A stretch of DNA of 64,000 nt, from sequence record PZ445488.1, one strand, 5' to 3'. Shown here in pieces: positions 2,598-40,261 of the stretch (position 1 is the first letter of the stretch; every line of letters starts with the position of its first letter). The position numbers and the translations under genes are program-made. Under the pieces are notes generated by a model, which saw only the letters and a program-made list of their open reading frames with translations, ran no database searches and was not told where the DNA came from. The DNA comes from a phage.

Positions 2598-4270
2598 TGA
2601 TGAGTGATATCGCCACCGATTGGACGATAGGAAACACCAGTTTCTTTATCAGTTAGTACCCATTTACCAGGATTTTTTGTAATCAGAGTAGCCGTTACAG
2701 GTTCTGCTACGTCATAACTAATAGAGCCGTCTTGAAGTACACGGCCCATGTTATGTAATTGCTTAGTCAGAAGTTCCATACCTTTATAATATGCGGCCAC
2801 CGCTTTAAGTGGATTATTCTTGAAATAACCACCTAATGCAATCCAGATAATTGCTACTGCCAAATGATGATACTCATTAAACGAACTCATCTTTCCATAT
2901 TTGTAAACTAATGGATTGATGTTAATAGTCACATTACAAGTTGTTTCATCAATAGTAAACTGACCCCAGGTCGGATTAGCATTGAATTCATCATAACCTG
3001 AAACAGCATAAAGCACTTTAGCTTCATCGTACAATTTTGGCCCGTAAATCTTGGTTTCACCAAAATATCCACGAGGGTCGATAAACTTGACTTCACCATT
3101 ATCAGTAATCATAGTATTACTGAAGTTCGGGTCGCCGTGAATAACAGAGTACTGTCCCTGAGAACGGTTATGATAACGAATAAGATGTTCTAAAGCTTGT
3201 TTCAACATTGGCTTCAGACGTCCAATCTTAGTGTAGTTCACGTGTGTGATTTTACCAAATGAATCAATCAATGGCTGAATGCTTTCACAACGATCAATAA
3301 CTTTCGTATAGAACTCTTTAGTGAAATCACGGCGAACAGTTTCAGGACTTACAAAATAAGTGTCTGTGCTGAATTTCAGTGCATCTAAAATTGCATCAAC
3401 AATTTGTGGACGAGCAAGACTTGATTTGGATTTAATATATTCAAATGCCGGCTTACCTTTAATGCGTTCCATAATAAAGTGGCCGCCAGGATGATAACTT
3501 ACAATCCGTGGAACTGAATCTGATTTAACTTTCTTATACCAATTGACTTCATCTTTTTGAAGTGCAACGCCCTGTTCTGTTAAAGCAATCTTTGTTACCG
3601 TTTCTTCGCCAATTTCAACTGCATTAAAACTACGATTAAGTTCACGAACTTCATGAGCTTTTTCAAGTTTAGGCATATCACCTAAATCAATTAGATTCAT
3701 AAGCTCTGATTTATTGAATGCACTACCGTAAAGGAATTCTACGAAATCACGTCCTTTGCAGTATTCGTGAATTTCCTCATCAGTAGAACCCATGTAGAAT
3801 TCCCAGTCTTTGAACTGATAAATTCCTACAACATTACCACCTGTTGAACCTACGTTAGTGATATTTTCACCATCGAAATTATATCGACATTCATCACCCT
3901 TAACATAGATTGCGTTAACATTCCAAGACCATGAACCAAAGTCAGGAATAATATCACACCAGTTAACAATTACGTTATGGCCATCTAAATCTTTGTATAA
4001 TTTAGCAAGAGCATAAGCAGAACCATACGCTTCATCAACTGTACGAATAGTCACATTGAACCCTTCTTGCTCGCAATAAGCTCGAACAGTTTCAGCAAAT
4101 TTTGAATGAACTACTACAATAATTTCATCTGCGCCAAGGTCAGAATAAATTGTATACAAATTGCTCAGAATAGTGTCTTGTTTATAGTTAACAAGCACCT
4201 TAGGAATATGGTGCGTTATTGGATACAAACGAGTTGCCAGTCCAGCACCAAGAATAACAGCTTTTTTCAT
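2582..4270 (-). CDS. bifunctional sugar-1-phosphate nucleotidyltransferase (N-term, RmlA/LicC/MurU-like) and anomeric sugar kinase (C-term, APH/choline-kinase fold)
   Basis: 562 aa; N-term KAVILGAGLATRLYPIT (GxGTRLxPxT pyrophosphorylase motif); C-term VIHGDPNFSNTMI...FIDPRGYFG (APH-type catalytic loop and DFG-like motif); ATG at 4270 with GAGGA RBS. Confidence 0.7.
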   Translation of the reverse strand: MKKAVILGAGLATRLYPITHHIPKVLVNYKQDTILSNLYTIYSDLGADEIIVVVHSKFAETVRAYCEQEGFNVTIRTVDEAYGSAYALAKLYKDLDGHNVIVNWCDIIPDFGSWSWNVNAIYVKGDECRYNFDGENITNVGSTGGNVVGIYQFKDWEFYMGSTDEEIHEYCKGRDFVEFLYGSAFNKSELMNLIDLGDMPKLEKAHEVRELNRSFNAVEIGEETVTKIALTEQGVALQKDEVNWYKKVKSDSVPRIVSYHPGGHFIMERIKGKPAFEYIKSKSSLARPQIVDAILDALKFSTDTYFVSPETVRRDFTKEFYTKVIDRCESIQPLIDSFGKITHVNYTKIGRLKPMLKQALEHLIRYHNRSQGQYSVIHGDPNFSNTMITDNGEVKFIDPRGYFGETKIYGPKLYDEAKVLYAVSGYDEFNANPTWGQFTIDETTCNVTININPLVYKYGKMSSFNEYHHLAVAIIWIALGGYFKNNPLKAVAAYYKGMELLTKQLHNMGRVLQDGSISYDVAEPVTATLITKNPGKWVLTDKETGVSYRPIGGDITHQWERI

Positions 4271-4311
4271 GTTGTGGTCCTCATTGGTAAGTAGGTGTAT
4301 TGTACACTATT

Positions 4312-4455
4312 CTAGTTAAAGCATTCATACTTTGCTTGTAGTCCAATCATAATCCATCCGATTATAAGAGTCGGAATCATTACTGGAGCCGTTAAGCTCC
4401 AGTAGATAGTCATGACAAGCATCAATAGTAAAAGTCCTATTGTTATTGCTTTCAT
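4312..4455 (-). CDS. small hydrophobic protein (47 aa, 2 predicted TM segments)
   Basis: Hand-translated MKAITIGLLLMLVMTIYWSLTAPVMIPTLIIGWIMIGLQAKYECFN; its ATG overlaps the stop of the SIS gene (ATGA); below the ORF-track size cutoff. Confidence 0.35.
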   Translation of the reverse strand: MKAITIGLLLLMLVMTIYWSLTAPVMIPTLIIGWIMIGLQAKYECFN

Positions 4456-32242: not shown

Positions 32243-32422
32243 TCACATAATCTCGTTAACATACATTTGCAATTCGGTGTGGGCGTCGGCCATCTTTTTC
32301 ATAGCTCTGTTAATGTCGATGTCTCCATCTTCGCAACCATGAGCATTTTCCCAATCGGATACAGAATTAGCATACTCTTCAATCAAAAACATCAACTTAG
32401 AAATCTTTTCTTTACGTGTCAT
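32243..32422 (-). CDS. small protein (59 aa)
   Basis: ORF track frame started at ATG 32422 (AGAGGAGAA RBS); the track start lies inside the promoter element. Confidence 0.45.
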   Translation of the reverse strand: MTRKEKISKLMFLIEEYANSVSDWENAHGCEDGDIDINRAMKKMADAHTELQMYVNEIM

Positions 32423-32449
32423 AACGTTCTCCTCTAGTAAGTAAGGACT

Positions 32450-32478
32450 ACTATAACACAACCTGAGGAGAAGTAAAC
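32450..32478 (-). promoter_or_regulatory. early promoter (GTTTAC, 17 bp, TATAGT)
   Basis: Minus strand reads GTTTACttctcctcaggttgtgtTATAGTagtcc. Confidence 0.45.
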
Positions 32479-32489
32479 TGATAGATGCC

Positions 32490-32516
32490 AAAAAGCCCCA
32501 ACCATAAGGAAGGGGC
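32490..32516 (-). terminator. rho-independent terminator (GCCCC-UUCCUUAUGGUU-GGGGC + U5)
   Basis: 3' of rI; its stem is nearly identical to the terminator at 47968..47995. Confidence 0.6.
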
Positions 32517-32523
32517 TAGTAAA

Positions 32524-32826
32524 TTAGATAGATGTAGGCTCTAATTTTATTTTCATGAACTCAGCAAATTGTCTGGCAGTTTTTATGCCTTGTTCATGAC
32601 ATTCAAATGCATCATCACAGGGGCTATTTTTGTAATGCTTTGCCATATACTTATAGAATTTTTCAGAATTCTCGACATTTTGAATTTCAAACAAAGTATA
32701 TACGTTTTTAATCCCTGATTCCATAAAGTTATCAAAATATGGGTCAATATGTGCAGTACCAACGATAGGAGTTGTTGCTGCAAAAAACCCCAGCATCGCT
32801 ATGACAGCTATCGCTCTTAAGGCCAT
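32524..32826 (-). CDS. rI: lysis-inhibition regulator RI (antiholin)
   Basis: MALRAIAVIAMLGFFAATTP...DPYFDNFMESGIKNVYTLFE resembles T4 RI (signal-anchor plus periplasmic domain); lies next to tk as in T4. Confidence 0.85.
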   Translation of the reverse strand: MALRAIAVIAMLGFFAATTPIVGTAHIDPYFDNFMESGIKNVYTLFEIQNVENSEKFYKYMAKHYKNSPCDDAFECHEQGIKTARQFAEFMKIKLEPTSI

Positions 32827-32838
32827 ATAGGCCTCCTG

Positions 32839-33051
32839 TTAATTTTGGCCAGTATTTATTTTTCGCCTTTGGACGGCCTTAACATCTGCGAGGTATTTTT
32901 CCAGCTTGCGCTTGCGTGTATAATCAGCTTTAGAACCGGTTTGACGGATATCCTCGTTTAAATGAGAAATAGAATGTCCTAATTCTCTTCGGATTTCGTC
33001 CAATTGGGTTACAGTAAGATTACGAAGTTGTCTTTCGTTTAATTGCTGCAT
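32839..33051 (-). CDS. hypothetical protein (70 aa)
   Basis: ORF track; ATG 33051 with AAGAGG RBS. Confidence 0.5.
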
Positions 33052-33075
33052 ATATACCTCTTGGTTAGATATTAG

Positions 33076-33083
33076 TATTTATA
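33076..33083 (-). promoter_or_regulatory. late promoter motif TATAAATA (minus strand)
   Basis: Exact octamer 25 nt upstream of the 33051 ATG, overlapping the tk stop. Confidence 0.4.
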
Positions 33084-33660
33084 ACAACCCTGTCAAATCA
33101 TTCCAATGCTTCCGGCATAATGACACGTATCTATCGGTATCACCAATTTCAATTTGACTGCCATCTGTAATTGGAAGTCCGTCTTCCGTGACTCTAGCTA
33201 CCATTGTGGCCTTTTTACCGCAATGACAGACACCTTTAAGTTCAACAAGCTTATCGGCAATAGCCATTAATGCTTGAGAACCTTCAAATAGATTACCTTT
33301 AAAATCTGTTCGTAGTCCATATGCCATTACTGGCACATTGTATACGTCAACAATACGACTAAGTTGATACACCTTTTCAGTAGTTAAGAACTGAGCTTCG
33401 TCAACAAATACACAGTGAATATCCTTTTGTGCTGCAGCCCATTTATAGAATTCAAAGATATCCATGTCTTTTGTAATTATATTGGCATCCTGACGAATAC
33501 CAATACGAGAGACTATTTCACCTTTTGAATCACGAGTATCAATAGCCGGTTTAAGAACTAATACACCCATGCCACGTTCTTTATAGTTATGTGCGGCAGT
33601 AAGTAATGAAGCAGACTTACCAGCGTTCATAGCGGCATAGGTAAAAATTAAACTAGCCAT
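33079..33660 (-). CDS. tk: thymidine kinase
   Basis: 193 aa; P-loop AAMNAGKS and zinc-ribbon cysteines (CHCGKKA...CRKHW). Confidence 0.93.
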   Translation of the reverse strand: MASLIFTYAAMNAGKSASLLTAAHNYKERGMGVLVLKPAIDTRDSKGEIVSRIGIRQDANIITKDMDIFEFYKWAAAQKDIHCVFVDEAQFLTTEKVYQLSRIVDVYNVPVMAYGLRTDFKGNLFEGSQALMAIADKLVELKGVCHCGKKATMVARVTEDGLPITDGSQIEIGDTDRYVSLCRKHWNDLTGLL

Positions 33661-33850
33661 AAGAGTCCTTAGTTAAATTTTCTAAATATGTTTCTAAATC
33701 ATTTTCAGCTTTATTGATAGATTTTACTAATTCGTAATATGTTTCGGCATCTCCATATTCAGAAGATATTTCAAAAGACAAATCCTTTTCTAAACTAATA
33801 ATTTCACCAACTAAAAATAATATTTCGTTCTTTTGTTCGCGAGTAATCAT
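33653..33850 (-). CDS. small acidic protein (65 aa)
   Basis: ORF track; paralog-like to the adjacent 63-aa ORF. Confidence 0.45.
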   Translation of the reverse strand: MITREQKNEILFLVGEIISLEKDLSFEISSEYGDAETYYELVKSINKAENDLETYLENLTKDSYG

Positions 33851-34038
33851 AAGGAATTTATATAATTAATAAGTTCTTGTTCTTTATTATCGAATTCTTT
33901 AGAAAGTTCTTCGTACTCGTTTTCACTAAAAGGACCGCATTCATTACAAACTTTTTCCAATTCACTATTTTTATCCATAACTTCGTGGATAAGAGAAAAG
34001 AGTTTGTCTTTTTGTTCTTTACTTAAACTCATAACCAT
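33847..34038 (-). CDS. small acidic protein (63 aa)
   Basis: ORF track. Confidence 0.45.
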   Translation of the reverse strand: MVMSLSKEQKDKLFSLIHEVMDKNSELEKVCNECGPFSENEYEELSKEFDNKEQELINYINSL

Positions 34039-34256
34039 GTCACCTTTAAGCAGTATTCTTCTACATGCTGTTTACGACCTTTCTTATCAATAAAGGTATA
34101 TTCAACGAATGTTCCGATGTAGTCTTTATCTACATCATGTGGACTATTAATTGGACATTTGGTACGACAAATGCGTTCCCATTGACGAATAATTACTGCC
34201 TTATTCTTTGGGTCATATGGATGCGGATAATGTATATTCATAATAATGGTTCCCAA
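34029..34256 (-). CDS. hypothetical protein (75 aa)
   Basis: ORF track. Confidence 0.45.
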   Translation of the reverse strand: MGTIIMNIHYPHPYDPKNKAVIIRQWERICRTKCPINSPHDVDKDYIGTFVEYTFIDKKGRKQHVEEYCLKVTWL

Positions 34257-34705
34257 TCAACAATCACAATTTCTAGTTTAGTGGAATACGTATCTAAAAT
34301 CTCTTCGATGACATCCCAGTTTCCACCACCTATACCTGCACCAATTCTTGGCATATAAATTACAGGCTTTGCTATCTTATTCTTTCCGAATTTATTTAAT
34401 TCTATTATACAATTCATTAAAGCAGAGTACTCAAAATTAGGTCCCGGCTCAAACTGCGTATAAAGATTAAAGCAATAAGCTTTATGGGTCTTGAAATATT
34501 TTTCATAAACCGAATAGGAACCGAGTTTAGTCTCATCGCCGAATTCGGTTTGGAGCTTATCGGCTTCTAAAATCTTTGGAAAGGCCTTCGCTAATTGCCC
34601 GGCTACTCCTGCGCCCATTGTATGGAAACAGTTACAACCATGAGCAACATTTTTACCTTCAGAAAACAGGGCGACAATATCGCCCTTGATATAGTTTTTA
34701 ATCAC
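34238..34705 (-). CDS. macro-domain protein (ADP-ribose binding / hydrolase family)
   Basis: 155 aa; VAHGCNCFHTMGAGVAGQLAKAFP and GAGIGGG blocks typical of macro domains; the start is GTG per the ORF track. Confidence 0.6.
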   Translation of the reverse strand: MIKNYIKGDIVALFSEGKNVAHGCNCFHTMGAGVAGQLAKAFPKILEADKLQTEFGDETKLGSYSVYEKYFKTHKAYCFNLYTQFEPGPNFEYSALMNCIIELNKFGKNKIAKPVIYMPRIGAGIGGGNWDVIEEILDTYSTKLEIVIVDWEPLL

Positions 34706-35045
34706 TTGCTACAAGTCCTCTAGTATAAGAGTCAACTAGACGGTCCACCATAGAATTGCATGCTGCCTTATCTTTAGGTTCCGCCACCGAGCATTCTAAT
34801 ATTTGCCATTTTTTATAGTATCTTTTAATTAAGGTAGATGCCTTGAACCTACTAGACGCCCCATCTTTTTCTCCGTCTTTATACGCATATAACAATTTTT
34901 GTGAAAAATCTACTTTACACTCTTGACTTTTACCACAATAATCAGACGCCGTTCTGTTTGTATACTCCGTTACATCAGTATATGTAGTATTAGCAAGAGC
35001 GTTAAATGAAACCAAGCTAACTATTAAAGCCAACATTTTGGTCAT
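34698..35045 (-). CDS. secreted/periplasmic protein (115 aa, signal peptide)
   Basis: MTKMLALIVSLVSFNALA signal-peptide-like N-terminus. Confidence 0.5.
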   Translation of the reverse strand: MTKMLALIVSLVSFNALANTTYTDVTEYTNRTASDYCGKSQECKVDFSQKLLYAYKDGEKDGASSRFKASTLIKRYYKKWQILECSVAEPKDKAACNSMVDRLVDSYTRGLVASD

Positions 35046-35584
35046 TCTTTTATTTCCAGTAGTTTATTTGATTTAAGGTAATTAGCCTTTTCTAGGACTT
35101 CAGAAGCATATTTACTTCCAGCACTTGTCTTCCATCCCGCATTATATGAGGATATAGCTTTTCTTATATCCCCGTTATGTATATTTAACCAATAAGAAAA
35201 TTCGATATAAGCCCATCTTGCTGAATTAGACCGCTTAGATAGCATTTTCTTAATTTGGGCATCAGTCATATTATAACCAAGCTGGTTAATTCTTGCCCTC
35301 ATTGTTGGTAGATAGTTTTGGAACATTCCATACGCATGGTGACCTTTCTTATCTTTAAGATTAATACCTGCGGATGATTCTTGCCATAGTATTGCGGCCA
35401 TTATGTATCCAAGTCCTTTCTTATGCATATTTTCATGCGTTTTAAATTTTCCGTCCTTAGAAAACTGTTCCCCAAACTGATAAGCATAATTCAAGTTATC
35501 GAGTTGGACATTACTAAAAGTATGCTCGGAGCTATGTGCTGATAACGAAAGAGCAAATAGACCAGCGAGTAGTGCTTTTCTCAT
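35042..35584 (-). CDS. periplasmic lytic transglycosylase (SLT domain)
   Basis: Signal peptide MRKALLAGLFALSLSA; SLT motifs AAILWQESSAG, AYGMFQ and YNAG. Confidence 0.65.
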   Translation of the reverse strand: MRKALLAGLFALSLSAHSSEHTFSNVQLDNLNYAYQFGEQFSKDGKFKTHENMHKKGLGYIMAAILWQESSAGINLKDKKGHHAYGMFQNYLPTMRARINQLGYNMTDAQIKKMLSKRSNSARWAYIEFSYWLNIHNGDIRKAISSYNAGWKTSAGSKYASEVLEKANYLKSNKLLEIKE

Positions 35585-35592
35585 GTTTACCT

Positions 35593-36051
35593 CTAGATTT
35601 TAATCACTGCTTTAGAAGCTTTTCCTGGTAGTCGTTTACTGTTAATAATAGCCATTCTGCATTGAAGAGTCTTCATTTTGAATGCTGGATTTTCGCGACA
35701 GACTGTAAGTCCTAACCAAAGATTTCCATCAGTTATTTCTAAACGGCCTGGGCGATATTCGACACCTTCGACAAAATCTTCATCAACATCTGGACGTGCC
35801 GGCATTGATAAAAATTCTGCAACTTCTTTAACATGATTTTTTACTTTATGAAATAATTCAAAAACGTAATTCTCATCTATTTCTCTCTGGATGGCACGAT
35901 CTAAGAGATGTTGAGAATACTTGATATGAAAGCCTGGTAGTCCAAGAGACTTTGCAGCATCTTTTATACCGGCATTTATTTTGCGGAACTCCGTTTCAAA
36001 GATTCGACGGAGTTTATTACGGCGGATAAAAACTTCCGAATTGATAGACAT
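35593..36051 (-). CDS. regB: site-specific endoribonuclease RegB
   Basis: MSINSEVFIRRNKLRRIFETEFRKIN...YSQHLLDRAIQREIDENYVFELFHK... matches T4 RegB (about 153 aa); ATG at 36051. Confidence 0.85.
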   Translation of the reverse strand: MSINSEVFIRRNKLRRIFETEFRKINAGIKDAAKSLGLPGFHIKYSQHLLDRAIQREIDENYVFELFHKVKNHVKEVAEFLSMPARPDVDEDFVEGVEYRPGRLEITDGNLWLGLTVCRENPAFKMKTLQCRMAIINSKRLPGKASKAVIKI

Positions 36052-36079
36052 TTTGATTTCTCCTCTAGTTGACAGGTCT

Positions 36080-36108
36080 ATAGTAACACAACTAGAGGAG
36101 AAGTAAAC
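36080..36108 (-). promoter_or_regulatory. early promoter (GTTTAC, 17 bp, TACTAT) with the -10 in the loop of a 10-bp palindrome (CCTCTAGTTG/CAACTAGAGG) that also contains the regB RBS
   Basis: Minus strand reads GTTTACttctcctctagttgtgtTACTATagacctgtcaactagaggagaaatcaaaATG. Confidence 0.5.
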
Positions 36109-36112
36109 TACT

Positions 36113-36328
36113 TTATTGATAAAACGGAGTTAAAGCCCAAGATTCTTTAGATACCATATCGGTGAAATGTCTCATCTCTTCGATTTGGCGACGACGCTGG
36201 TCAGCATAATCTTCTTCACCTTCTTCCTTACAATCTTCAAGGTCTTCTTCAAGATACTTTAAGTATTCACTACAAATTTTGTTGACCTTTTCTTGAAAGT
36301 CCAATAACCCAGTAATAGTAGAAGCCAT
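36113..36328 (-). CDS. hypothetical acidic protein (71 aa)
   Basis: ORF track. Confidence 0.45.
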   Translation of the reverse strand: MASTITGLLDFQEKVNKICSEYLKYLEEDLEDCKEEGEEDYADQRRRQIEEMRHFTDMVSKESWALTPFYQ

Positions 36329-36594
36329 TAGTATTTTTCCTCAGGTCGAAATACTGCACGACACGCCCACATGCTGGCTTCTTTTAGATGTTGCTTAGCA
36401 TACTTAAGAGCCTGTACTGCATCCATATCTTCTTTGGTTTGTTGCTCTGTTTCATTTTCTTTCAAGATATAGGCTTCTTCAATCAGAGCATCAAACAACA
36501 ATCCAAGACGGACTTCTGCATCTTTAATAGCGTTCACTTTACCGATTTTATCATCGGTATGCGGCTTGTAGCCTTTGATGTCTTCAATCGACAT
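36328..36594 (-). CDS. hypothetical protein (88 aa)
   Basis: ORF track frame started at ATG 36594 (GAGGA 9 nt upstream) to resolve the overlap with the 36584..36808 ORF. Confidence 0.45.
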   Translation of the reverse strand: MSIEDIKGYKPHTDDKIGKVNAIKDAEVRLGLLFDALIEEAYILKENETEQQTKEDMDAVQALKYAKQHLKEASMWACRAVFRPEEKY

Positions 36595-36808
36595 AAGGAA
36601 TTTCCTCATCGGTGGCAAGGTCATATTCGACCAATTGGATAGGCTCATTAATACCATATCCACGTACAATGATATCAGTTGTCGGATAGTTTCCAGTAAT
36701 ATCACCCATTCTAAATGCTTCAGTGAATGATTGCTCGCCAGAGCAACTAAACCAGGCGGCAAAACATTTTAAAACATCTTCAGACCCTTCTATAATCAAT
36801 TTAGCCAT
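36584..36808 (-). CDS. hypothetical protein (74 aa)
   Basis: ORF track; start abuts the GrcA-like stop. Confidence 0.45.
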   Translation of the reverse strand: MAKLIIEGSEDVLKCFAAWFSCSGEQSFTEAFRMGDITGNYPTTDIIVRGYGINEPIQLVEYDLATDEEIPYVD

Positions 36809-37170
36809 TATAGGCTCTCAGTAAAGGTACGAGCGATAACGTCGCGCTGCTGTTCCGGAGTCAGAGAGTTAAAGCGAACTGCATAACCGGATACACGGAT
36901 GGTCAGCTGAGGATATTTTTCCGGATGCTTAACTGCATCTTCCAGAGTTTCGCGACGCAGAACGTTAACGTTCAGGTGTTGACCACCTTCAATTTTAACT
37001 TTAGGTTGATGTTCAATTTCAATTTCACGGGCATTCAAACCGTAGAAAATTTCCGGGTCTACAATAGCGTCTTCTTTAAAAGTCTTAGAGACAATAATCC
37101 GGGCTTGAGTACCGTCTTCAAAATAAATAGTGCCTTTGTGTGTGCCTTCAAGAATTTGATATGCTTTCAT
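36808..37170 (-). CDS. grcA: autonomous glycyl-radical cofactor (GrcA/YfiD-like; T4 Y06I-type)
   Basis: 120 aa; glycyl-radical motif RVSGYAVRF; the C-terminal about 60 aa ([59 protein letters not shown]) match E. coli GrcA as I remember it. Confidence 0.85.
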
Positions 37171-37176
37171 ATAACC

Positions 37177-37485
37177 TCAATTAGAAAATAAATTTATCCA
37201 AGTTTTTTCTTTAATCAAAAATGGGTCAGAATTAAACGCCATTAAACTTTGAGTGATTAATCCCTTAAACGGCCCATCAATAAATTCCATTTTGAAATGC
37301 GGAATACTAGTCATCAACCGTGCATTAGGAGCAGTACAAAGAACCTGCTGCCCTGCGAACGGACCTTTAGTCAAACGATATCGTTTAGGTTTAAAATGGT
37401 AAATCTCGTAATTTTCTACAAGAGCCCTTTTATTGCATACTGGGCTGTTATAACAATACTCAAAAACTTCAATAGTGGTCATCAT
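37177..37485 (-). CDS. hypothetical Cys-rich protein
   Basis: ORF track frame; start moved to ATG 37485 to remove the overlap with the upstream gene. Confidence 0.4.
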   Translation of the reverse strand: MMTTIEVFEYCYNSPVCNKRALVENYEIYHFKPKRYRLTKGPFAGQQVLCTAPNARLMTSIPHFKMEFIDGPFKGLITQSLMAFNSDPFLIKEKTWINLFSN

Positions 37486-38021
37486 TGCATTCCAATCACA
37501 AAAAATTGAGGACGAGCAATACCGCCGATGCAATATTTGCTTTTGCAACAGTGTTGGACTGTTTTAATATGGACATTGTAAATCTTATCCATATCAGGAG
37601 CTTTAATAGGCTCGTCAATTATGTACAGAATACGAGAAAGCGTTAATCCACGGAATTTAGAACCTTCATTGCCAATAAAACTACGGACAGAATCAGTAAA
37701 TAAACGGAATCGAATATCATCGCTAGAATAACGAGAAAATTCTTTTTTAATGTTGCCAGCAGAAATTTTAGCATAGGCTGAAGTATTAGAAAGAACAATA
37801 ACTGTTCCACCGTCATACAGCCAATTAACAGCAAAATTAGTTACTGCAGTCGATTTACCTGATTGTCGGCCGCCGTCTAAACGAAGTGTACAGTACTGCT
37901 TGAGTACGTCTTCAAACGGTGGGATATAACCGTTCTTACAAATTTCTTCTACTCTAGCATCAGAATGGTGTGTAAAAGCATTCATCAGGGATAGATAAGG
38001 TCCAGTTAAAAATGTTCTCAT
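37482..38021 (-). CDS. P-loop-containing protein (179 aa)
   Basis: ORF track; Walker-A-like GGRQSGKST. Confidence 0.5.
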   Translation of the reverse strand: MRTFLTGPYLSLMNAFTHHSDARVEEICKNGYIPPFEDVLKQYCTLRLDGGRQSGKSTAVTNFAVNWLYDGGTVIVLSNTSAYAKISAGNIKKEFSRYSSDDIRFRLFTDSVRSFIGNEGSKFRGLTLSRILYIIDEPIKAPDMDKIYNVHIKTVQHCCKSKYCIGGIARPQFFVIGMQ

Positions 38022-39001: not shown

Positions 39002-39283
39002 CTATTTTTCTGAAGCGCCTGAAATATATTTTTCAAGACGTTGTTTCATTAACGAGCCGTTCTTAGCGATTTCTTCCGGTTTATCGCACATACGCAACAG
39101 TGCTTCAAGCTTAGCGATATCGCTGGTACGTTCAAATTTGCGAGTATCTATCTTACTGGCAAGTTCAGAAATACGTGCTAATAGACTTTCGGCTTCAACC
39201 AAAGCTGCACCTAGCTTAGTTGCAAATGTGTCAGTAGCTTCGTTAAGAATAGATTCTGATAAAAATTCACTATATGTTTTCAT
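39002..39283 (-). CDS. internal-protein-like capsid-targeted protein
   Basis: From ATG 39283: [20 protein letters not shown]...; the ATG overlaps the lysozyme stop (ATGA). Confidence 0.55.
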
Positions 39284-39768
39284 ATATACGCTTTCCAAGT
39301 TCCTGTTTTAAATGTTGAGATTACGCGTTTCGCGCGATTAGGTGTCTGACGATACCATTTAGATTGGGCTAGATTTACTGCCGCTTCATCCCAACGTTTC
39401 TGTTGAAGCATACGAAGAGAATTAGTAAAACCAGCAACGCCTGCTACACCCATTTGGAAGACCATATTGACCAATGCACATCGACGAACTGCATCTAAAG
39501 AATCATATACCGGTTTAAGTTTAGCATTACCCAAGATTCCGCGAACGGCTTTATCGACGTCTTCATTAAATAGCTTTTCAGCCTCATCAAGGGTAATTGT
39601 ACCGTTGCATTTACGACCGATCATTCTGTCAAGTTCAGCTTTAGCTACGGCTAAAGACGGGTTCTTTGTTACTAAATGGCCTATGCCAATCGTCCAAAAG
39701 CCTTCAGTGTCTTTGTATAAAGTCAGTCTAAGACCTTCGTCATTACGAAGCATTTCAAATATATTCAT
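39280..39768 (-). CDS. e: lysozyme (endolysin) gene e
   Basis: 162 aa; [32 protein letters not shown]... is about 80 percent identical to T4 lysozyme by eye; ATG at 39768. Confidence 0.95.
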
Positions 39769-39802: not shown

Positions 39803-40261
39803 TTATAGGAGGGTAGTGAGCACCTTATATAATGATTTGCCCATCACATATTCCCATTGAGAAGGTTTAATTAAAGCGAATGCATCAAATTCAGGAATCT
39901 GTCGTCCGTCTGGGAATGTATGATAGGAATTACAAACACTGTTTCTGAATTGCTCGTGCTCTACAGGGATGGTATATAGGAACAGATGAATATTCTTATT
40001 GTCTGAGTAATGATGTTCACCTAGGTCTTTCAGGAAGGCAGGGTCATATTGTGTAAACCCAGTTTCTTCTTCGCATTCACGAATAGCGGCTTCAATAGGA
40101 GATTCGCCAGGTTCGACACGGCCTTTAGGAATATCCCAGCGATGAGCTAATGCACCTTTAGGACGAGAACCAGTTACACGCCCCATGAATAATTCTTTAT
40201 CTTCGGTAAGGAAAATAATACCGGCTGATAGCTCTTTCACTTTATTTTTCTTACTCATCAT
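39803..40261 (-). CDS. nudE: Nudix hydrolase NudE
   Basis: 152 aa; Nudix box GRVEPGESPIEAAIRECEEETG. Confidence 0.85.
   Translation of the reverse strand: MMSKKNKVKELSAGIIFLTEDKELFMGRVTGSRPKGALAHRWDIPKGRVEPGESPIEAAIRECEEETGFTQYDPAFLKDLGEHHYSDNKNIHLFLYTIPVEHEQFRNSVCNSYHTFPDGRQIPEFDAFALIKPSQWEYVMGKSLYKVLTTLL

What the first reader, a model, noticed from the sequence alone, without database searches (positions are those of the whole stretch)
34238..34705. Macro-domain protein in the early region
Motifs VAHGCNCFHTMGAGVAG and GAGIGGG indicate a macro (ADP-ribose binding/hydrolase) domain. T4-like phages ADP-ribosylate host proteins (Alt, ModA, ModB), and hosts use ADP-ribosylation-based defences such as DarTG; a phage macro domain could reverse or sense such modifications.
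Basis: partly seen in the sequence, partly recalled or inferred. Interest (0 to 1): 0.5.

Follow-up and report, generated by a model that had tools for sequence, protein, structure and literature searches.

The report
Phage T4 Tk.4/AdfM macrodomain ortholog
This gene is the counterpart, in an RB69-like T4-type phage, of T4 gene tk.4 (now called adfM), a small stand-alone macrodomain enzyme that phage T4 needs to grow on bacteria armed with the DarTG2 DNA-ADP-ribosylating defence; it is real but already known.

Summary
A 155-codon ORF lies at 34238-34705 on the minus strand and carries both quoted motifs. It passes Pfam Macro (28.9 bits, cutoff 22) and folds with high confidence (pLDDT 95.4) into a macrodomain. 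Its nearest solved structures are BT_1257/SCO6735, Poa1p, DarG and TARG1.

It is the ortholog of T4 tk.4: 86% identity over all 155 residues with no gaps, and the same gene order (regB-vs.1-vs-tk.4-tk.3-tk.2-tk.1-tk). T4 Tk.4 has been annotated as an A1pp/macro "phosphatase" since at least 2006. A 2025 preprint (HIDEN-SEQ) found tk.4 as the only T4 gene required on a DarTG2 host, confirmed this with a clean knock-out, and named it adfM.

My additions are modest:
- This family carries an invariant Gln (Q84, 253/253 ungapped sequences) where DarG and TARG1 have their catalytic Lys. This matches SCO6735, a proven Lys-less thymidine-ADP-ribose DNA hydrolase.
- PhiKZ "AdfM" is a separate, DarG-like, Lys-type lineage.
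- The tk.4-tk.1 block is a recombination mosaic.

No biochemistry on the T4-type protein was found. Verdict: already known, low interest.

The parts
34238..34705 (-). tk.4 / adfM coding sequence: 155-aa stand-alone macrodomain
34703..34705 (-). GTG start codon, overlapping the end of vs (GTGATTAA; vs stop TAA at 34698-34700), which suggests translational coupling
   Evidence: Sequence; T4 has ATG at the same codon, overlapping the vs stop as ATGA
34598..34648 (-). Residues 20-36, VAHGCNCFHTMGAGVAG: strand plus first Gly-rich ADP-ribose-binding loop. Includes H22, G23, N25 (codon 34631-34633) and G33
   Evidence: Direct reading. N25 is conserved in 119/120 + 134/134 family members. N25 aligns with PhiKZ AdfM N23, whose Ala mutant has reduced activity. 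H22-x-C24-N25 aligns with SCO6735 H24-V25-C26-N27
34454..34468 (-). Residues 80-84, N-L-Y-T-Q: end of the central strand. Q84 (codon 34454-34456) occupies the position of the catalytic Lys of DarG (K80) and TARG1 (K84), and of Gln85 of SCO6735
   Evidence: hhalign and MAFFT. Q84 invariant in 121/121 and 132/132 ungapped sequences. SCO6735 Q85A is inactive (PMC9411070)
34322..34351 (-). Residues 119-128, PRIGAGIGGG: second Gly-rich (diphosphate-binding) loop
   Evidence: Direct reading. P119, G122 and G124 invariant among ungapped sequences. Aligns with PRIGCGLAGG of BT_1257/SCO6735 and PRIGCGLDRL of TARG1
34238..34241 (-). ATGA overlap: tk.4 stop TGA (34238-34240) with the ATG of tk.3 (34239-34241)
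   Evidence: Sequence; tk.3 is annotated from this ATG in moskry and T4; 70-aa product 100% identical to T4 Tk.3
34698..35045 (-). Upstream neighbour vs (valyl-tRNA synthetase modifier). Not part of the macrodomain function; it defines the synteny
34029..34241 (-). Downstream neighbour tk.3 (DUF7202). No DarT-like toxin gene lies next to the macrodomain on either side
   Evidence: Pfam DUF7202, E=2e-38

Best explanation
The gene is the Mosigvirus (RB69-like) ortholog of T4 tk.4/adfM. It encodes a 155-residue protein that is nothing but a macrodomain of the ALC1-like class (the class holding DarG, TARG1, SCO6735/BT_1257 and Poa1p).

Proposed mechanism: it is made before DNA replication, as part of the tightly packed regB-vs-tk.4-tk gene array. 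It then acts as an 'orphan antitoxin'. It binds the ADP-ribose that the host toxin DarT2 attaches to thymidine in single-stranded phage DNA and hydrolyses the ribose-N3 bond. This releases free ADP-ribose and restores replicable DNA, so the DarTG2 defence fails.

Catalysis is probably of the SCO6735 type rather than the DarG type. An invariant Gln (Q84) replaces the catalytic Lys and would position the distal ribose, while an activated water does the chemistry. N25 and the two Gly-rich loops hold the ADP-ribose.

What is shown here: macrodomain identity, the predicted fold (the class assignment rests on an AlphaFold2 model), orthology to T4 tk.4, and the active-site signature. What is shown in the literature for the ortholog: a genetic requirement on DarTG2 hosts. 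What is inferred: that this allele does the same, that the substrate is thymidine-linked ADP-ribose on DNA, and the Gln-based mechanism.
For: - Orthology: 86% identity over 155/155 residues without gaps; identical gene order regB-vs.1-vs-tk.4-tk.3-tk.2-tk.1-tk.
- Function of the ortholog: tk.4 was the single significant HIDEN-SEQ hit on a DarTG2 host, and a clean knock-out was sensitised.
- Active site: Q84 aligns with DarG K80, TARG1 K84 and SCO6735 Q85 and is invariant in 253 ungapped family sequences. SCO6735 removes DarT-made thymidine-ADP-ribose faster than DarG, rescues E. coli from DarT, and its Q85A mutant is dead (PMC9411070).
- A different phage macrodomain, PhiKZ gp104, removes DarT2 ADP-ribose from DNA in vitro and protects against DarTG2 (PMC13309987). 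Its functionally tested Asn23 aligns with N25.
- Purifying selection: dN/dS 0.06.
- Consistency check: phage T5, the DarTG2-sensitive control, has no detectable ALC1-like macrodomain anywhere in its 121,750 bp (best E 0.08, against 2e-66 and 1e-13 for the positive controls).
Against: - No biochemical assay of T4 Tk.4 or of this allele was found, and no trans-complementation of the T4 knock-out was seen in the text read. Enzymatic reversal is therefore an inference.
- The protein lacks DarG's catalytic Lys. It also lacks two features that the SCO6735 paper ties to that enzyme's mechanism and efficiency: the 5-6 residue longer mobile loop, and Val25 (Gly23 here).
- The window allele differs from T4 at 21 of 155 residues, including inside the second loop (GIGGG versus GIGKG).
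- The only functional evidence for the T4-type protein is a preprint.
- Sequence similarity to the small-molecule phosphatase Poa1p is as strong as to DarG.
- Iyer et al. 2022 argued that most phage macrodomains target soluble ADP-ribose derivatives.
Confidence: 0.75

Rival explanations
1. Small-molecule ADP-ribose processing. The protein would be an ADP-ribose-1''-phosphate phosphatase (as the old 'A1pp phosphatase' annotation says), or would degrade another soluble ADP-ribose derivative used as a host signal or toxin. The DarTG2 phenotype would then be secondary or additional.
For: - T4 RefSeq calls Tk.4 'phosphatase; contains A1pp phosphatase motif', and PHROG 335 is labelled 'phosphatase'.
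- The family shares H22, N25 and the invariant D49 with Poa1p.
- Iyer et al. 2022 predicted that phage macrodomains mostly act on low-molecular-weight ADP-ribose derivatives.
Against: - The 'phosphatase' label is a domain-name transfer, not an assay.
- The only phenotype reported is specific to DarTG2, whose toxin modifies DNA.
- Poa1p has Ser where this family has its invariant Gln.
- From established knowledge: Appr-1''-p arises from the Tpt1/KptA 2'-phosphotransferase step of RNA ligation, which the T4 Pnk/Rnl1 repair pathway does not use.
Confidence: 0.1
2. Non-enzymatic neutralisation. The macrodomain would block DarT2 by binding the toxin, or by shielding ADP-ribosylated or target DNA, rather than by hydrolysis.
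For: Catalytically dead SCO6735 Q85A, DarG K80A and TARG1 K84A all still inhibit DarT in vitro by 'interaction-inhibition'. AdfA and AdfB, other anti-DarT factors, act by binding the toxin. The catalytic Lys is absent here.
Against: All ADP-ribose-binding and SCO6735-type catalytic positions are invariant across 254 sequences from very different phages. That fits a conserved chemistry better than co-evolution with one toxin surface. The protein has no counterpart of DarG's C-terminal DarT-binding domain, being only 155 aa. PhiKZ AdfM works enzymatically.
Confidence: 0.08
3. Housekeeping of the phage's own ADP-ribosylation. The protein would remove or limit marks placed by the phage transferases Alt, ModA and ModB on host proteins, or the RNA-protein links made by ModB.
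For: T4-type phages do encode these transferases (established knowledge; Alt and ModA orthologs are mentioned). SCO6735 and TARG1 also act on Glu/Asp-linked protein ADP-ribose.
Against: From established knowledge, Alt and Mod modify arginine, a linkage that macrodomains are not known to cleave (ARH-type enzymes do). tk.4 is non-essential on plain K-12 and scored only on the DarTG2 host. None of these transferase genes lies near tk.4 in the window.
Confidence: 0.04

Closest known systems
Phage T4 Tk.4 = AdfM (anti-DarT factor Macrodomain; bioRxiv 10.1101/2025.11.20.689424)
   Same: Same length (155 aa), 86% identity with no gaps, the same position between vs and tk.3, and the same active-site signature.
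   Different: 21 substitutions, including GIGGG versus GIGKG in the second loop. GTG rather than ATG start, and an 8-nt rather than 4-nt overlap with vs. The host phage is a Mosigvirus, not a Tequatrovirus. This allele's function is untested.
SCO6735 (Streptomyces coelicolor) and BT_1257 (PDB 5E3B, 2FG1/2AFC): Gln-type ALC1-like macrodomains
   Different: Only 22-31% identity. Lacks the 5-6 residue longer 'mobile loop' said to define that subclass, and has Gly23 where SCO6735 has Val25. Has an invariant D49 where they have Tyr. Phage-encoded rather than cellular.
DarG2 antitoxin macrodomain (T. aquaticus 5M31/5M3E, M. tuberculosis 5M3I)
   Different: Catalytic Lys80 replaced by Gln. No C-terminal DarT-binding domain and no adjacent darT gene. 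NCBIfam DarG score is 32 bits against a cutoff of 250.
PhiKZ gp104 'AdfM' (Cell Rep 2026, PMC13309987)
   Same: A stand-alone phage macrodomain that counters DarTG2. It shares the conserved Asn (N23 there, N25 here) and the Gly-rich loops.
   Different: A separate lineage. Pairwise BLAST finds only a 23-residue match (E=0.002). gp104 is DarG-like, with the FPTK Lys motif, and matches M. tuberculosis DarG at E=9e-25. It is imported into the phage nucleus. The same name was coined independently for two distantly related proteins.
Human TARG1 (OARD1)
   Same: Top Foldseek hit (E=5.5e-10). Same short loop length after the catalytic position. TARG1 also removes thymidine-linked ADP-ribose.
   Different: The TARG1 Lys84/Asp125 dyad corresponds to Gln84/Gly126 here; about 24% identity.
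Yeast Poa1p, ADP-ribose-1''-phosphate phosphatase (PDB 6LFQ)
   Different: Ser instead of Gln84, and an insertion before the second loop. It is a small-molecule phosphatase, an activity not shown for any Tk.4.

Membership tests
Macro domain superfamily (Pfam PF01661) | Profile match above the curated gathering score | tested here: met
   28.9 bits against cutoff 22, E=1.2e-6, profile positions 2-117 of 118
Macro domain superfamily (Pfam PF01661) | Macro alpha/beta fold | tested here: met
Macro domain superfamily (Pfam PF01661) | Two conserved Gly-rich ADP-ribose/diphosphate-binding loops | tested here: met
   M30-G31-A32-G33 and P119-R-I-G-A-G-I-G-G-G; G33, G122 and G124 invariant among ungapped sequences
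T4 Tk.4 / AdfM orthologous group | Full-length high identity to T4 Tk.4 | tested here: met
   134/155 identical, no gaps, E=8e-107
T4 Tk.4 / AdfM orthologous group | Conserved position between vs and tk.3 in the regB-tk cluster | tested here: met
T4 Tk.4 / AdfM orthologous group | Required for growth on DarTG2-expressing hosts | not testable with these tools
   Shown only for T4 itself
ALC1-like macrodomain class (DarG, TARG1, SCO6735/BT_1257, Poa1p) | Closest structural neighbours fall in this class, clearly separated from MacroD-type and viral macrodomains | tested here: met
SCO6735/BT_1257 subclass | Gln at the position of the DarG/TARG1 catalytic Lys | tested here: met
   Q84 aligned with SCO6735 Q85 and with DarG K80; invariant in the family
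SCO6735/BT_1257 subclass | 'Mobile loop' about five residues longer, following the catalytic position | tested here: not met
   The window protein and T4 Tk.4 have the short, TARG1-length loop; there is a 6-column gap relative to BT_1257. The feature is defined in PMC9411070
SCO6735/BT_1257 subclass | Val/Ile25, whose backbone positions the catalytic water | tested here: not met
   Gly23 at the aligned position, near-invariant (119/120 and 129/134 ungapped). The contact is through the backbone, so function may still be kept
DarG2 antitoxin (NCBIfam NF048014) | Equivalog score cutoff | tested here: not met
   32.4 bits against cutoff 250; the match covers only profile positions 11-146 of 338
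DarG2 antitoxin (NCBIfam NF048014) | Catalytic Lys80 | tested here: not met
   Gln84 at that column
DarG2 antitoxin (NCBIfam NF048014) | C-terminal DarT-binding domain and an adjacent darT gene | tested here: not met
   The protein is 155 aa, macrodomain only; its neighbours are vs and tk.3/DUF7202
PhiKZ-type AdfM (gp104) | DarG-like sequence with the FPTK motif | tested here: not met
   Pairwise BLAST gives only E=0.002 over 23 residues; NLYTQ here against FPTKD there
Poa1p-like ADP-ribose-1''-phosphate phosphatases | Phosphatase activity on Appr-1''-p | not testable with these tools
   Only sequence and fold similarity are available; Ser in Poa1p against Gln84 here

The most novel reading that the evidence does not exclude
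The T4-type AdfM family is large: 5,011 clusters at 50% identity with E of 0.001 or better. It may be a third catalytic solution for removing ADP-ribose from thymidine. It has no Lys (unlike DarG and TARG1), no extended mobile loop and no Val25 (unlike SCO6735), and instead carries an invariant H-G-x-N ... D49 ... N-x-Y-T-Q signature in which the Poa1p-like Asp49 plays a role. It might also have a wider substrate range, such as soluble or RNA-linked ADP-ribose. In addition, the tk.4-tk.1 block behaves as an exchangeable anti-defence cassette. There are two 57%-identical alleles at one locus within Tequatrovirus, and a near-identical tract is shared between Mosigvirus and T4.
Probability: 0.25. 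Interest if true: 0.4.

Novelty: already known. Interest (0 to 1): 0.18.

Why it matters
It adds little beyond confirmation. The gene is a well-conserved member of a family already annotated as macrodomain, and its T4 ortholog has already been tied genetically to DarTG2 evasion.

The practical value is for annotation. Public records label this gene variously as 'phosphatase', 'hypothetical protein', 'Poa1p_like' or 'macro domain protein', and it could now be labelled adfM.

The active-site observation is also useful. Gln84 replaces the DarG Lys, as in SCO6735, and PhiKZ 'AdfM' is a different, Lys-type lineage. This tells experimenters which residues to mutate, and warns that one name now covers two distantly related enzymes with probably different chemistry.

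Tried and rejected
- **Sigma-70 promoter and terminator scan of 32400-37500.** It found 16 promoter-like sites against 18.0 expected and 5 terminator-like sites against 3.2, which is uninformative.
- **Terminator-like hairpin inside codons 7-13 of tk.4 (34686..34668, minus strand).** It is identical in T4 and vB_SsoM_113. However, a 24-nt identical run is not unusual at about 80% identity, and in vB_SsoM_113 it lies in the 99%-identical flank. I do not count it as a feature.
- **The ungapped phmmer alignment to BT_1257.** It places Q84 opposite Asp. MAFFT and hhalign, together with the published structure-based alignment, put it opposite the BT_1257/SCO6735 Gln, so I rejected the phmmer register at that spot.
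- **P0127 (1314 aa, 23 matched stretches).** It looked like a giant relative but is a 57-residue tandem-repeat artefact.
- **Literature on Poa1p catalytic residues and LeRoux et al. 2022.** I found nothing usable, or the paper is not held.
- **T5 gene T5.105, labelled 'Sir2'.** I suspected it might be a macrodomain; it is a HAD_SAK_2 domain.
- **A DarT-like partner gene or a second macrodomain in the window.** I looked and found neither.
- **3D proximity of D49 to the ligand site.** I could not test it because the model coordinates are not readable.

Full report
**The observation**

The ORF listing returns an ORF at exactly 34238..34705 on the minus strand, 155 aa with a GTG start. It contains VAHGCNCFHTMGAGVAG (residues 20-36) and GAGIGGG (residues 122-128). 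I checked both against the raw sequence.

- The GTG overlaps the stop of the upstream gene vs (GTGATTAA).
- The TGA stop overlaps the ATG of the downstream gene tk.3 (ATGA).
- The gene therefore sits in a translationally packed array.
- T4 has ATG at the homologous start codon, and the 97%-identical phage moskry is annotated with the same start.

**Is it a macrodomain?**

Yes.

- Pfam Macro PF01661 scores 28.9 bits against a gathering cutoff of 22, over almost the whole profile.
- PHROG 335 matches at E=1.4e-65.
- The DarG models of PADLOC and NCBIfam match the macro part only (E=7e-9 and 6e-8). The NCBIfam score of 32 bits is far below the equivalog cutoff of 250.
- An AlphaFold2 model built on 55 homologs has pLDDT 95.4 and pTM 0.90.
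- Foldseek against the PDB puts TARG1, BT_1257, Poa1p and DarG on top.

The protein is therefore an ALC1-like-class macrodomain, on the strength of the predicted model.

**What locus is this?**

- The 3.1 kb around the gene is 97-98% identical to Mosigvirus (RB69-like) phages such as PNJ-6, HX01 and moskry.
- The gene order is regB, vs.1, vs, this gene, tk.3, tk.2, tk.1, tk, which is exactly that of T4.
- The T4 gene in that slot is tk.4. The two proteins are both 155 aa and 86% identical without gaps.
- dN/dS between them is 0.06, with saturated synonymous sites.
- tblastn finds relatives in 2,790 phage records.
- An exhaustive search finds 5,011 clusters at 50% identity with E of 0.001 or better, and 1,480 at 1e-10 or better.

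**What is already known**

- T4 RefSeq annotates tk.4 as 'phosphatase; contains A1pp phosphatase motif'.
- Nolan et al. 2006 already reported the A1pp match for tk.4 orthologs (PMC1524935).
- The HIDEN-SEQ preprint (bioRxiv 10.1101/2025.11.20.689424) infected a DarTG2-expressing host with a T4 transposon library and found tk.4 as the single significant hit. It confirmed that a clean knock-out is sensitised, noted the structural similarity to M. tuberculosis DarG, and renamed the gene adfM.
- No enzymology, and no complementation for this gene, was seen in the text I read.
- Independently, Morgan et al. (Cell Rep 2026, PMC13309987) named PhiKZ gp104 'AdfM'. They showed that it removes DarT2-installed ADP-ribose from DNA in vitro, that N23A reduces activity, and that it protects PhiKZ from DarTG2.
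- Earlier work showed that T2 and T4 lacking the NADAR enzyme AdfN remain DarTG2-resistant, which left room for a second factor (PMC11825919).

**The active site**

This is the one point where my analysis goes beyond the papers.

A profile-profile alignment of the Tk.4 family against DarG, TARG1 and PhiKZ gp104 gives probability 99.3% and E=1.7e-20. It puts Gln84 in the column of the catalytic Lys (DarG K80, TARG1 K84). I verified the TARG1 sequence I used against the PDB. The DarG, BT_1257 and SCO6735 sequences were read from PDB alignments.

A MAFFT alignment that includes BT_1257 and SCO6735 shows the following at that position:

| Protein | Motif |
|---|---|
| Window protein / T4 Tk.4 | NLYTQ |
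| BT_1257 / SCO6735 | NMIGQ |
| TARG1 | YLITK |
| DarG | NFPTK |
| PhiKZ gp104 | MFPTK |

- Q84 is invariant in 121/121 close homologs and in 132/132 ungapped further cluster representatives.
- SCO6735 is a published precedent. It has Gln85 at this position, Q85A is inactive, and the enzyme removes thymidine-linked ADP-ribose from DNA faster than DarG or TARG1 and rescues E. coli from DarT (PMC9411070).
- The T4-type AdfM is therefore a Gln-type enzyme. PhiKZ AdfM is a Lys-type, DarG-like enzyme (E=9e-25 to M. tuberculosis DarG), and the two share only a 23-residue BLAST match. The two 'AdfM' proteins are separate recruitments of the same fold class.

Differences from SCO6735:

- The phage protein lacks the longer mobile loop.
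- It has Gly23 instead of Val25.
- It has an invariant Asp49 that it shares with Poa1p, not with SCO6735. I cannot explain D49.

**Mechanism**

The best-supported reading is an orphan-antitoxin enzyme. It would hydrolyse DarT2-made thymidine-ADP-ribose on phage single-stranded DNA, using an SCO6735-like Lys-independent mechanism.

- Shown here: fold (predicted), orthology and active-site signature.
- Shown in the literature: the DarTG2 dependence of T4 tk.4, and the chemistry of SCO6735 and PhiKZ gp104.
- Inferred: the substrate and chemistry of this protein.

As a consistency check I fetched the whole T5 genome, since T5 is the DarTG2-sensitive control in both studies. I searched all stop-to-stop segments of 50 aa or more with the Tk.4 and DarG/TARG1 profiles. 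Nothing scored better than E=0.08, while the window and T4 controls scored 2e-66 and 1e-13. T5.105, labelled 'Sir2', is a HAD_SAK_2 domain.

**Rivals**

- A small-molecule role (Appr-1''-p phosphatase or signal degradation) rests on the old annotation, the Poa1p similarity, and a general prediction for phage macrodomains. It has no phenotype behind it.
- Non-enzymatic DarT2 inhibition is possible, because dead SCO6735, DarG and TARG1 mutants still inhibit DarT. The invariance of the catalytic positions across very diverse phages argues for chemistry.
- Reversal of the phage's own Alt/Mod marks is unlikely. Those are Arg-linked, and tk.4 scored only on DarTG2.

**Side observations**

- Against T4, DNA identity is 58-83% in regB, vs.1, vs and tk. 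It rises to 94-100% from about 34325 to 33640, which covers the 3' end of tk.4 plus tk.3, tk.2 and tk.1. Tk.3 is 100% identical at the protein level.
- Conversely, T4 and the Tequatrovirus vB_SsoM_113 are 99% identical in the flanking proteins but only 58% identical in Tk.4, and they carry different small genes downstream. The tk.4-tk.1 block is therefore a recombination mosaic with at least two deep tk.4 alleles. This pattern is common for anti-defence loci.
- A MotA-box-like middle-promoter pattern is enriched in the window: 12 matches against 4.0 expected, with 0 of 100 shuffles reaching 12. One copy lies inside tk.4, upstream of tk.3.

**Verdict**

The finding is real and correctly interpreted, but it is an ortholog of a gene whose domain has been annotated for about two decades and whose anti-DarTG2 role was reported in 2025. 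Novelty: already known. Interest: low (0.18). The residual open question is the chemistry of this Lys-less, short-loop macrodomain.

Noticed in passing
window 33640-34325 (3' end of tk.4, tk.3, tk.2, tk.1): This tract is 94-100% DNA-identical to T4, while the flanking regB, vs.1, vs and tk are only 58-83% identical. Tk.3 is 100% identical to T4 at the protein level. This suggests recent exchange of the block between the Mosigvirus and T4 lineages.
   Followed up: partly
L003 (Shigella phage vB_SsoM_113) 2001-2480, against L002 (T4) 3923-4390: Within Tequatrovirus the flanking proteins are 99% identical, but Tk.4 is only 58% identical and the small genes downstream differ. Two deep tk.4 alleles therefore occupy the same locus. 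The tblastn identity histogram is correspondingly bimodal: 381 records at 80% or more, 5 at 60-80% and 2404 below 60%.
   Followed up: partly
window 34668-34686, minus strand (codons 7-13 of tk.4): A terminator-like hairpin AGGGCGATATTGTCGCCCT followed by a T-run lies just inside the coding sequence. It is identical in T4 and vB_SsoM_113. It is not statistically compelling and may only reflect conserved codons.
   Followed up: partly
window 34399-34424, minus strand (inside tk.4), and window-wide: The T4 middle-promoter (MotA box) pattern TGCTTNA-N11-13-TANNNT occurs 12 times against 4.0 expected (0 of 100 shuffles reach 12), 9 of them on the minus strand. One copy sits inside tk.4, upstream of tk.3; T4 has CGCTTTA at that spot.
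   Followed up: partly
window 39803-40261, minus strand: A Nudix hydrolase ORF (Pfam NUDIX, E=2.4e-16) lies next to a phage lysozyme ORF (39280-39768). It is likely the NudE/e.1 counterpart, and the T4 enzyme is reported to hydrolyse ADP-ribose (Xu et al. 2002, cited in PMC1524935). It could dispose of the ADP-ribose released by the macrodomain; that link is speculative.
   Followed up: no
window 33653-33850 and 33847-34038, minus strand (tk.1, tk.2); 34029-34241 (tk.3): tk.1 and tk.2 both match DUF7438 and so are paralogs. tk.3 matches DUF7202 and carries several Cys/His residues. All are of unknown function and overlap their neighbours by 4-10 nt.
   Followed up: no
residue D49 of the protein (window codon 34559-34561): Asp49 is invariant in 121/121 and 133/134 family sequences. 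It is shared with yeast Poa1p but not with SCO6735/BT_1257 (Tyr) or DarG. Its role is unknown, and the model coordinates could not be inspected.
   Followed up: partly
public annotations of the same locus (L001 and hits H1-H55): Labels are inconsistent or spurious. The macrodomain gene is called 'phosphatase', 'hypothetical protein', 'Poa1p_like' or 'macro domain protein'. In moskry, tk.3 is 'putative ABC transporter ATP-binding protein' and vs.1 is 'endoribonuclease'.
   Followed up: no
window 35042-35584, minus strand (vs.1): There is a weak SLT lytic-transglycosylase match below Pfam's cutoff (18.8 bits against 21.3). It agrees with the old weak assignment for T4 vs.1.
   Followed up: no
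P0127 (metagenomic protein, 1314 aa): It appeared as a strong hit with 23 matched stretches, but it is a 57-residue tandem repeat that sums weak matches to residues 31-71. It is an artefact, not a macrodomain protein.
   Followed up: yes
L004-L006 (phage T5, whole genome): T5 has no detectable ALC1-like macrodomain. It encodes a Sir2-family protein (T5.102) followed two genes later by a HAD_SAK_2 'Swiss Army Knife RNA repair' domain protein (T5.105) that is mislabelled Sir2.
   Followed up: partly
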